Part shown: positions 3,805 to 4,231 of the stretch, piece after piece
Position numbering within the stretch: position 1 is the first letter of the stretch
Layout of the letters: each line of letters begins with the position of its first letter
From: Escherichia coli
Lineage (GTDB): Bacteria > Pseudomonadota > Gammaproteobacteria > Enterobacterales > Enterobacteriaceae
DNA: 64,000 nucleotides
Assembly: GCF_016026235.1 (NCBI RefSeq)
Contig: NZ_CP065613.1
Direction: 5' to 3' (one strand)
Notes under the pieces: model-generated
The model's database searches: none
Told to the model about the DNA's origin: nothing
What the model saw: the letters and a program-made list of their open reading frames with translations, nothing else
Made by a program: the position numbers and the translations under genes

Positions 3805-4126
3805 TGATATGACTTTCCGTGTCAAACCGGAATCTCTAATTTTGACGATTTTCTTTTTAGGTTTAATTCCCTGAGGGCGACGTAGCAGTAAATCCGACGG
3901 TGAATCACGCTGATATTCGCGGGTTGGATACCGCATTACAGAGGTCCGTCATATGAGCCTGCCACTGATATGACTTTCCGTGTCAAACCGGAATCTCTAA
4001 TTTTGACGATTTTCTTTTTAGGTTTAATTCCCTGAGGGCGACGTAGCAGTAAATCCGACGGTGAATCACGCTGATATTCGCGGGTTGGATACCGCATTAC
4101 AGAGGTCCGTCATATGAGCCTGCCAC
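3805..4126. repeat. Perfect tandem duplication, 2 x 161 bp (3805-3965 and 3966-4126)
   Basis: The two units are identical base for base on direct reading; each unit begins with tgatatgactttccgtg. Confidence 0.95.
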
Positions 4127-4231
4127 TTTCTTACGTCGCGAATCAGCTTTGTTCCGCCGTCGCCAAGCGCTAACGTGGGTTACTCTTGTACCGGGCTACG
4201 TCGCCTTCAGGGAACTGGTTATTCTCATTTT

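What the first reader, a model, noticed from the sequence alone, without database searches (positions are those of the whole stretch)
3805..4231. Structured 3' non-coding flank of the IS110/IS1111-like element: candidate bridge/seek RNA
The roughly 430 bp downstream of the transposase stop (minus strand) is non-coding and highly structured. A 20-bp segment at 4194-4213 (gctacgtcgccttcagggaa) is the reverse complement, with one mismatch, of ttccctgagggcgacgtagc at 3863-3882 and 4024-4043, and cgcgaatcagc at 4137-4147 mirrors gctgatattcgcg in each unit, so the transcript can form a long imperfect hairpin. IS110-family recombinases are known to use an element-encoded guide RNA, and in the IS1111 subgroup it lies downstream of the recombinase, matching this layout. 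Whether this particular region encodes one is inference.
Basis: partly seen in the sequence, partly recalled or inferred. Interest (0 to 1): 0.6.

Follow-up and report, generated by a model that had tools for sequence, protein, structure and literature searches.

The report
ISSso6 guide (seek/bridge) RNA gene
The non-coding tail of this insertion sequence (ISSso6, IS1111 type) encodes the expected guide RNA that tells its transposase where to insert, a known kind of system; this copy also carries an unusual exact 161-bp duplication of its end.

Summary
The region is the 3' non-coding end of an ISSso6 copy (IS110 family, IS1111 group) on the minus strand, 3804-5483. A ~190-nt RNA core at 4026-4217 (-) is conserved downstream of the transposase in 71 of 80 related loci. 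Its nine helices show strong covariation: 29 of 45 pairs have compensatory changes.

An internal loop carries two guide segments. UUAGCGCUU pairs with the top strand, and ACGUAAG matches the left half of the target. The target, GTAAG|CGCT, was verified on three empty sites. In relatives both segments change together with each element's own target (0/20000 permutations, repeated on metagenomic copies). That is the published IS1111 seekRNA / bridge RNA layout. Durrant et al. 2024 already list ISSso6 as having a predicted bridge RNA in its right end, so this is already known.

Specific to this copy: a frameshifted transposase, hybrid flanks, and an exact tandem duplication of the last 161 bp. Its junction lies at an internal ...GAAAG| site just after the left-target guide, which may be a footprint of RNA-guided self-recombination. 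That last point is unproven.

The parts
3804..5483 (-). ISSso6 copy (IS110 family, IS1111 group), 1,680 bp. That is the standard 1,520 bp plus the 161-bp duplication minus a 1-nt deletion.
   Evidence: 99-100% identical to annotated ISSso6 copies in E. coli and Shigella. Ends were fixed by three empty sites.
4232..5358 (-). Transposase gene, here a pseudogene. A T-run of 5 instead of 6 at 5087-5091 shifts the frame; intact copies encode 375 aa.
   Evidence: ORFs 4232-5041 and 4912-5406. Alignment to intact copies. NCBIfam NF033542, IS110 family RNA-guided transposase, 274 bits for the intact protein.
4026..4217 (-). Seek/bridge RNA gene core, about 190 nt, complete copy.
   Evidence: nhmmer with a profile of relatives' NCRs, E = 1.6e-53. 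Covariance model R1, built without this sequence: 186.1 bits, E = 8e-45, full length. Fold z = -5.1.
4195..4216 (-).
   Evidence: Helices 1-3: 20 pairs, 16 of them with compensatory changes, 92-97% of cells paired.
4026..4047 (-). 3' strand of closing stem P1 (native partner).
4165..4173 (-). Guide segment 1, UUAGCGCUU, on the 5' side of the target-binding internal loop. It pairs with target top strand AAGCGCT across the insertion point.
   Evidence: Target GTAAG|CGCT from empty sites. In 25 related elements this segment matches the reverse complement of the element's own right flank: mean 4.0 of 6 against 1.95 for non-self, 0/20000 permutations. Replicated on 8 metagenomic elements: 40/48 against 23.3, 2/20000.
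4130..4136 (-). Guide segment 2, ACGUAAG, on the 3' side of the same loop. It is identical to the left target half and so pairs with the bottom strand CTTAC.
   Evidence: GTAAG precedes the IS at all independent ISSso6 sites read here. Self against non-self match 3.09 against 1.43 of 5, 0/20000 permutations.
4138..4163 (-). Hairpin P3, which caps the target-binding loop.
   Evidence: Helix 6: 8 pairs, 7 with compensatory changes.
4055..4114 (-). Second domain (stems P4 and P5) with a conserved internal loop.
   Evidence: Helices 7-8: 99% paired, nearly invariant. Sequence conserved down to relatives of 48-55% aa identity.
4071..4077 (-). AUAUCAG in the second domain's loop, identical to the right-end terminus CATATCAG. 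Candidate donor (right-end) guide.
   Evidence: Nearly invariant across relatives. The match to the right end is read directly. The function is inferred.
4046..4052 (-). UUACUGC at the multiloop/P1 boundary, complementary to left-end GCAGTA. Candidate donor (left-end) guide.
   Evidence: Durrant et al. note donor-binding nucleotides in a multiloop for many IS1111 members. Inferred.
3965..4125 (.). Tandem unit, inner copy. This is the native last 161 bp of ISSso6: the 3' half of the RNA gene plus the right end.
3804..3964 (.). Tandem unit, outer extra copy, 100% identical. It is absent from every other ISSso6 copy examined.
   Evidence: Standard copies carry one unit. The junction was not found in 5,426 E. 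coli genomes or 72,556 plasmids.
3865..3966 (-). Partial second copy of the RNA gene (model positions 88-190). It lacks both target guides.
   Evidence: nhmmer E = 2.8e-32. cmsearch 75.8 bits.
5466..5479 (+). Left subterminal inverted repeat, CACGGAAAGTCATA on the + strand.
3969..3982 (+). Right subterminal inverted repeat, inner copy. The outer copy is at 3808-3821.
3820..3825 (-). TTGACA (-35 hexamer) in the right end, also at 3981-3986. It is conserved in all relatives and would lie 17 nt before left-end CAGTAT in a circle junction.
   Evidence: The junction promoter idea comes from ISEc11 (PMC11187229). Inferred.
5484..5488 (-). Left half of the target (GTAAG), nhaA-upstream site.
   Evidence: Empty site in E. 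coli O157.
3800..3803 (-). Right half of a target (CGCT), belonging to a different insertion site.
   Evidence: Empty site in E. coli Nissle 1917...GGAGCG|CTTAC....

Best explanation
Window 3804-4231 is the right-end non-coding region of an ISSso6 insertion sequence (IS110 family, IS1111 group) lying on the minus strand. It encodes a roughly 190-nt guide RNA (seekRNA / bridge RNA) at 4026-4217.

In the first domain an internal loop presents two guides. UUAGCGCUU base-pairs with the top strand of the target (AAGCGCT). (AC)GUAAG base-pairs with the bottom strand of the left target half. The two overlap at the AG where strands are exchanged. The second domain and the multiloop present AUAUCAG (the same as the right-end terminus) and UACUG(C) (complementary to the left end), which would hold the element's ends.

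Bound to the DEDD transposase, the RNA directs insertion between GTAAG and CGCT without target duplication.

Shown here: conservation, covariation of the helices, the exact target, and co-variation of guides with targets. Inferred: transcription (probably as read-through of tnp, then processing), protein binding, the donor-guide roles and the AG core.

This copy has a frameshifted transposase, so its RNA could act only with transposase supplied by other copies. The extra 161 bp is a copy-specific tandem duplication of the element's end.
For: - Identity as ISSso6, and standard copies with a single unit.
- RNA-guided transposase family. Pfam PF01548 + PF02371 on near-identical homologues.
- Subterminal inverted repeats.
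- The core is found downstream of tnp, on the same strand, in 71 of 80 related loci.
- RNAalifold gives 45 pairs, 29 with compensatory changes. 96.4% of cells are paired, no shuffle of 500 reaches any of the five measures, and slid controls give 30-42% paired.
- Many G-U pairs (for example 3/213, 43/110, 119/172) fit only this strand.
- A covariance model built without the window sequence hits 4026-4217 at 186 bits.
- Three empty sites give T-GTAAG|CGCT with no duplication.
- Guide-target co-variation: and an independent set.
- The layout (top-strand match 5' of bottom-strand match, overlapping) is as in Siddiquee et al. 2024.
- Durrant et al. 2024 list ISSso6 with the labels 'RE' and 'IS1111' in a supplementary table (file 8), which I read as a predicted bridge RNA in the right end.
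Against: - No expression data were available, and no sigma-70-like promoter lies directly upstream of the RNA on the minus strand.
- Rfam 15 has no family that hits the region.
- The donor-guide assignments cannot be tested by covariation, because the element ends are nearly invariant. The few variants in AUAUCAG (for example L076, L049, L033) do not track changes in the right end.
- Some relatives (L014, L034, L058) match their flank poorly at guide segment 1.
- The permutation tests do not correct for relatedness among elements.
Confidence: 0.9

Rival explanations
1. The conserved 3' region acts only at the DNA level, as transposase-binding or end-recognition sequences of the right end. No functional RNA is made.
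For: The region ends in the right inverted repeat and contains sequences identical to the element's ends, ATATCAG and GGCAG. No promoter was found directly upstream.
Against: Compensatory changes keep nine helices intact across relatives down to 48% protein identity. Frequent G-U pairs would be A-C mismatches on the other strand or in cruciform DNA. The two loop segments track each element's external target rather than its own ends. Experimental precedent exists in four IS1111 members (PMC11187229).
Confidence: 0.04
2. The structured region is a transcription terminator, attenuator or antisense regulator of the transposase gene, not a guide.
For: It is a long stable hairpin just after the stop codon.
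Against: No U-tract follows the stem, and the terminator scan finds none on the minus strand in 3804-4231. Guide-target co-variation has no role in such a model. The conserved single-stranded loops match the target and the element ends.
Confidence: 0.03
3. About the 161-bp duplication only: it arose by ordinary replication slippage or illegitimate recombination at 2-nt microhomology (AG), unrelated to the transposase.
For: The junction shares only AG. Two-copy exact tandem repeats are a common product of slippage. No further example turned up in 80 related loci, in 41 metagenomic right ends, or in the E. coli and plasmid collections.
Against: One breakpoint is exactly the element's terminus, where the transposase cuts. 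The other ends in AG, like every left target, and matches the left-target guide 5/7. An independent ISSso6 copy (L093) has a different 339-bp terminal duplication whose internal breakpoint, ACGTGAG|, matches the guide 6/7. That is one of only 3 of 82 AG sites in the element that match at 6/7 or better.
Confidence: 0.55

Closest known systems
IS1111-family seekRNA (ISEc11, ISPa11, ISKpn4, ISPst6; Siddiquee et al. 2024, PMC11187229)
   Same: The RNA is encoded in the long non-coding region downstream of tnp. The element has subterminal inverted repeats and inserts at a specific target without duplication. [quoted passage not shown] Guides are naturally reprogrammed among relatives. A -35 hexamer sits in the right end, as needed for a circle-junction promoter.
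   Different: ISSso6 was not tested in that work. Its transposase is 375 aa, outside the 330-350 aa quoted for the family, and is about 17-25% identical to the other ISfinder representatives in their identity matrix. The conserved RNA unit here is ~190 nt closed by a 20-bp stem, against 82-96 nt 'peak' seekRNAs. The first domain alone (about 70 nt) would correspond to those.
IS621 / IS110-group bridge RNA (Durrant et al. 2024, PMC11208160; Hiraizumi et al. 2024, PMC11208158)
   Same: One RNA has separate target-binding and donor-binding parts. Guides lie on the two sides of an internal loop. A short core is shared by target and donor. The recombinase is of the DEDD plus Tnp_20 type. ISSso6 is listed in their supplementary table with the labels RE and IS1111.
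   Different: The RNA is at the 3' end, not the 5' end, and the guide order is reversed. The apparent core is AG, not CT. One candidate donor guide lies in the multiloop/closing stem rather than in a simple internal loop, a feature Durrant et al. note for many IS1111 members.
ISPpu9 modular minicircles (Pares-Guillen et al. 2025, PMC12288879)
   Same: This is an IS110-family element whose 3' module, carrying a small-RNA gene, can be excised and propagated separately through alternative end-like sites. It is a precedent for transposase action on internal sites that would yield partial-element circles or duplications.
   Different: There the module is a separate sRNA gene that is not needed for transposition. 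Here the duplicated piece is the 3' half of the guide RNA gene plus the right end, and no circles have been observed.

Membership tests
IS1111 group of the IS110 family | DEDD (PF01548) plus PF02371 transposase of the IS110 family | tested here: met
   NCBIfam NF033542, 274 bits (cut-off 140) for the intact ISSso6 protein; 191 bits for the window's C-terminal ORF. Pfam domains on homologues of 95% identity.
IS1111 group of the IS110 family | Subterminal inverted repeats of 7-17 bp, with short extensions beyond them | tested here: met
   A 14-nt perfect repeat, TATGACTTTCCGTG, lies 4 nt from each end.
IS1111 group of the IS110 family | The longer non-coding region lies downstream of tnp | tested here: met
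   The left end to the ATG is 125 nt. The stop codon to the right end is 267 nt in standard copies and 428 nt here.
IS1111 group of the IS110 family | Site-specific insertion without target-site duplication | tested here: met
   Three empty sites...GTAAG|CGCT... with nothing duplicated. GTAAG is found at all independent left junctions.
seekRNA / bridge RNA | A conserved structured RNA in the NCR, supported by covariation on the tnp strand | tested here: met
   29 of 45 pairs compensatory, 96.4% of cells paired, 0/500 shuffles. Own covariance model gives 186 bits.
seekRNA / bridge RNA | [quoted passage not shown] | tested here: met
   UUAGCGCUU at 4165-4173 and ACGUAAG at 4130-4136, against GTAAG|CGCT.
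seekRNA / bridge RNA | Guides change together with the target in related elements (programmability) | tested here: met
   Permutation tests: 0/20000 for the right guide, 0/20000 for the left guide, and 2/20000 on an independent metagenomic set.
seekRNA / bridge RNA | Donor-binding segments complementary to the element's ends | tested here: inconclusive
   AUAUCAG (the same as the right end) and UACUGC (complementary to left-end GCAGTA) are present and conserved. The ends barely vary, so no covariation test is possible, and the rare variants do not track.
seekRNA / bridge RNA | The RNA is expressed, binds the transposase and is required for circle formation and insertion | not testable with these tools
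   No transcript or biochemical data. No promoter-like site directly upstream, consistent with processing from the tnp transcript as proposed for ISEc11.
Rfam families (release 15) | A match to a curated covariance model | tested here: not met
   No hit in 3804-4231 even at E <= 10. That scan returned no bridge or seekRNA family at all, so the library may not hold one.

The most novel reading that the evidence does not exclude
The exact 161-bp terminal duplication in this copy, and the independent 339-bp one in E. coli VL40 pINV, may be footprints of guide-RNA-directed recombination between the element's right end and internal pseudo-targets. Both internal sites end in AG and match the left-target guide: AAGAAAG|, directly after the guide-coding DNA, and ACGTGAG|. 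If so, ISSso6 occasionally targets itself in vivo, and a left-guide match plus the AG core is enough for strand exchange. The event could be direct, or a nested insertion followed by homologous deletion.
Probability: 0.3. Interest if true: 0.45.

Novelty: already known. Interest (0 to 1): 0.25.

Why it matters
The result confirms that sequence alone can pick out an RNA-guided transposase's guide gene. For ISSso6, an element abundant in Shigella and enteroinvasive E. coli, it supplies the exact target (T-GTAAG|CGCT), the two target guides and a covariation-backed secondary structure. None of the papers I read describes these for ISSso6. They would allow its insertion sites to be predicted, or the element to be reprogrammed. 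The kind of system and its presence in ISSso6 were already published, so the finding itself is not new. The terminal duplications, and the second IS that inserts into the guide gene of relatives, are small leads on off-target and IS-on-IS behaviour of these recombinases.

Tried and rejected
- An Rfam 15 scan of 3000-6000 at E <= 10 gave no relevant family.
It has 1 compensatory pair, no excess over shuffles, and clashes with covarying P3 and P5.
- The single-sequence MFE fold uses that pairing, so it is not a reliable guide to the inner structure.
- A promoter and terminator scan found nothing on the minus strand within the NCR.
- I looked for the duplication junction elsewhere. A 100-nt query was uninformative, because standard copies match it as two pieces. 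A 52-nt junction-specific query found nothing in E. coli genomes or plasmids.
- I looked for further right-end-to-internal junctions. There were none in 80 related loci, and none among 41 metagenomic right ends followed by a base other than C.
- Only one more case turned up, by chance: L093.
- My first cut of the element ends included GTAAG in the IS. The empty sites corrected this.
- One script call produced nothing, and one count call (68) failed on a truncated structure string.

Full report
**What is there**

The region lies inside an insertion sequence on the minus strand. Megablast shows 99-100% identity to elements annotated 'IS110-like element ISSso6 family transposase' in E. coli chromosomes and in Shigella and E. 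coli plasmids.

Standard copies are 1,520 bp, with perfect 14-nt subterminal inverted repeats, and encode a 375-aa protein. NCBIfam calls that protein an IS110 family RNA-guided transposase: NF033542, 274 bits against a cut-off of 140.

In the window the element spans 3804-5483:
- The left end is at 5483.
- tnp runs from 5358 to 4232.
- The 3' non-coding region runs from 4231 to 3804.

Compared with intact copies, the window copy has lost one T from a T-run at 5087-5091. This splits tnp into two ORFs. It also carries an exact tandem duplication of its last 161 bp, at 3804-3964 and 3965-4125. No other copy I examined has this duplication.

**Check of the observation**

The 20-nt inverted repeat is real, but it sits at 4195-4214 against 3867-3886 and 4028-4047. 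That is 1 to 4 nt away from the stated coordinates.

The 192-nt core folds far better than shuffles: z = -5.1, with 0 of 200 shuffles as good.

**Ends and target**

I joined the flanks of two insertions and searched for uninterrupted sites. Each empty site turned out 5 nt longer than the joined flanks. Reading them gave:
- nhaA upstream: TTGACGGCT-GTAAG|CGCTGACGG
- sopA: ATATCAT-GTAAG|CGCTGGGAG

A third site, for the window's own right flank, reads TTAATT-GTAAG|CGCTCCGAG in E. coli Nissle 1917.

So ISSso6 inserts between GTAAG and CGCT with no duplication. The AG of the left target is the same as the AG that ends the right end (CATATCAG), which fits a 2-nt core. The core itself is an inference. 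All independent left junctions carry GTAAG, and most right flanks start CG(C/T).

**The RNA**

I took the intact transposase, collected homologues, and fetched 80 related loci from species-representative genomes. They are mainly Burkholderiaceae at 72-81% aa identity, plus others down to 48%.

Aligning the regions downstream of tnp showed a strongly conserved block of about 190 nt. A profile of that block finds it in 71 of 80 loci, always downstream of tnp and on the same strand. In the window it finds a complete copy at 4026-4216 and a 3' half-copy at 3865-3966.

RNAalifold on 37 sequences predicts 45 pairs in nine helices, and 29 pairs have compensatory changes. Counting pairs gives:
- 96.4% of cells paired.
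- No shuffle of 500 reaches any of the five measures.
- 30-42% paired when partners are slid by 1-3 columns.

Frequent G-U pairs fit only this strand.

A covariance model built from 31 relatives, without the window sequence or its three closest relatives, hits 4026-4217 (-) at 186 bits, E = 8e-45. It hits the half-copy at 76 bits.

**Guides**

Between helices P2 and P3 lies an internal loop whose two sides are the only hypervariable parts of the core.

In ISSso6 the 5' side is UUAGCGCUU (4165-4173). This is the complement of target top strand AAGCGCT, across the insertion point. The 3' side is ACGUAAG (4130-4136), identical to the left target half.

In each relative these segments match that element's own flanks:
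- L015: CACAGCUA, for GGCTAG|CTGTGC.
- L014: GAACAAG, for GAACAAG|.
- L067: AGCGCG, for |CGCGCT.

Shuffling targets among elements never reached the observed match. For the right guide the total was 100, against about 49 expected, 0/20000. For the left guide it was 68, against about 31, 0/20000.

An independent set of 8 distinct metagenomic elements gave 40 of 48 matches against 23.3 expected, 2/20000. These permutations ignore relatedness among elements, so the numbers are indicative rather than exact probabilities.

This order, with the top-strand match 5' of the bottom-strand match and the two overlapping, is what Siddiquee et al. report for IS1111 seekRNAs.

The second domain carries a near-invariant AUAUCAG, the same as the right-end terminus. 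UACUGC, complementary to left-end GCAGTA, sits at the multiloop. Durrant et al. mention multiloop donor-binding nucleotides for IS1111 members. Because the element ends hardly vary, I could not test these donor assignments.

**Comparison with what is known**

This is a member of the published seekRNA / bridge RNA class. Durrant et al. list ISSso6 with the labels 'RE' and 'IS1111' in a supplementary table (file 8), which I read as a predicted bridge RNA in the right end. NCBI's model name for this family is now 'IS110 family RNA-guided transposase'. Rfam 15 gives no hit in the region.

**What is particular to this copy**

1. The transposase is frameshifted, so the RNA could act only with transposase supplied in trans.

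2. The flanks belong to two different insertion sites. The nhaA site is on the left-end side and the Nissle-type site is on the right-end side. This implies recombination between two ISSso6 copies.

3. The 161-bp duplication joins the right-end terminus CATATCAG to TGGCAGG. The parental internal site is GACGTAAGAAAG|TGGCAGG, four nt after the left-target guide. It ends in AG and matches the guide ACGTAAG at 5 of 7 positions.

   By chance I found a second ISSso6 copy, in E. coli VL40 pINV (L093). It has a different terminal duplication of 339 bp. Its internal breakpoint is ACGTGAG|CTGGCGGG, a 6 of 7 match.

   Of the 82 AG-ending sites in the element, 13 match the guide at 5/7 or better and 3 at 6/7 or better.

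   This suggests transposase and guide action on internal pseudo-targets. Two cases with 2-nt microhomology do not exclude ordinary slippage, and further searches found no more.

**Verdict**

The kind of system is already known, so interest is low to moderate. The duplication mechanism remains an open side question.

Noticed in passing
L055:2675-4045; the same junction in L025, L047 and L037: In four Paraburkholderia genomes, ISSso6-like elements with four different target guides have their guide-RNA gene interrupted exactly after the conserved GGATATCAG. The inserted sequence is the same in all four (ATCCTATGAAGCG...) and encodes another IS110-family RNA-guided transposase (383 aa, NF033542, 176 bits). 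This looks like an IS that specifically targets the guide-RNA gene of another IS family.
   Followed up: partly
L093 (E. coli VL40 plasmid pINV, NZ_JBLWKI010000002.1 106668-108933): An ISSso6 copy with a 339-bp tandem duplication of its 3' end. The junction is CATATCAG|CTGGCGGG. The internal breakpoint ACGTGAG| lies in the tnp 3' coding region and matches the left-target guide 6/7.
   Followed up: yes
window 3480-3803 and 5484-5640: The two flanks of this ISSso6 copy come from different insertion sites. The left-end side is the nhaA-upstream site, as in E. coli FDAARGOS_943. The right-end side is a site that in E. coli Nissle 1917 lies between an IS3-type transposase fragment and a PTS ascorbate transporter gene. 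This implies an inversion or deletion by recombination between two ISSso6 copies.
   Followed up: partly
window 5087-5091: A one-base deletion in a T-run (5 T instead of 6) frameshifts the ISSso6 transposase. This copy is non-autonomous.
   Followed up: yes
window 3208-3434 (-) and 3417-3671 (+): A weak AfaR-like Rfam match (33 bits, far below the gathering score of 100) overlies an IS-end-like sequence next to an 84-aa IS3-family orfA-type fragment. A similar sequence flanks another ISSso6 copy (L005).
   Followed up: no
window 3820-3825 and 3981-3986 (-): A perfect TTGACA in the right end is conserved in all relatives. It would sit 17 nt upstream of left-end CAGTAT in a circle junction, like the junction promoter described for ISEc11. 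At the duplication junction no -10 hexamer follows it.
   Followed up: no
L013-L069 and L095-L135: The closest relatives of this Shigella/E. coli element (72-81% aa identity, same inverted repeats, same RNA core) are numerous in Burkholderiaceae genomes and in contigs from public metagenomes. Each has different guides and targets. This points to wide horizontal spread with frequent natural retargeting.
   Followed up: partly
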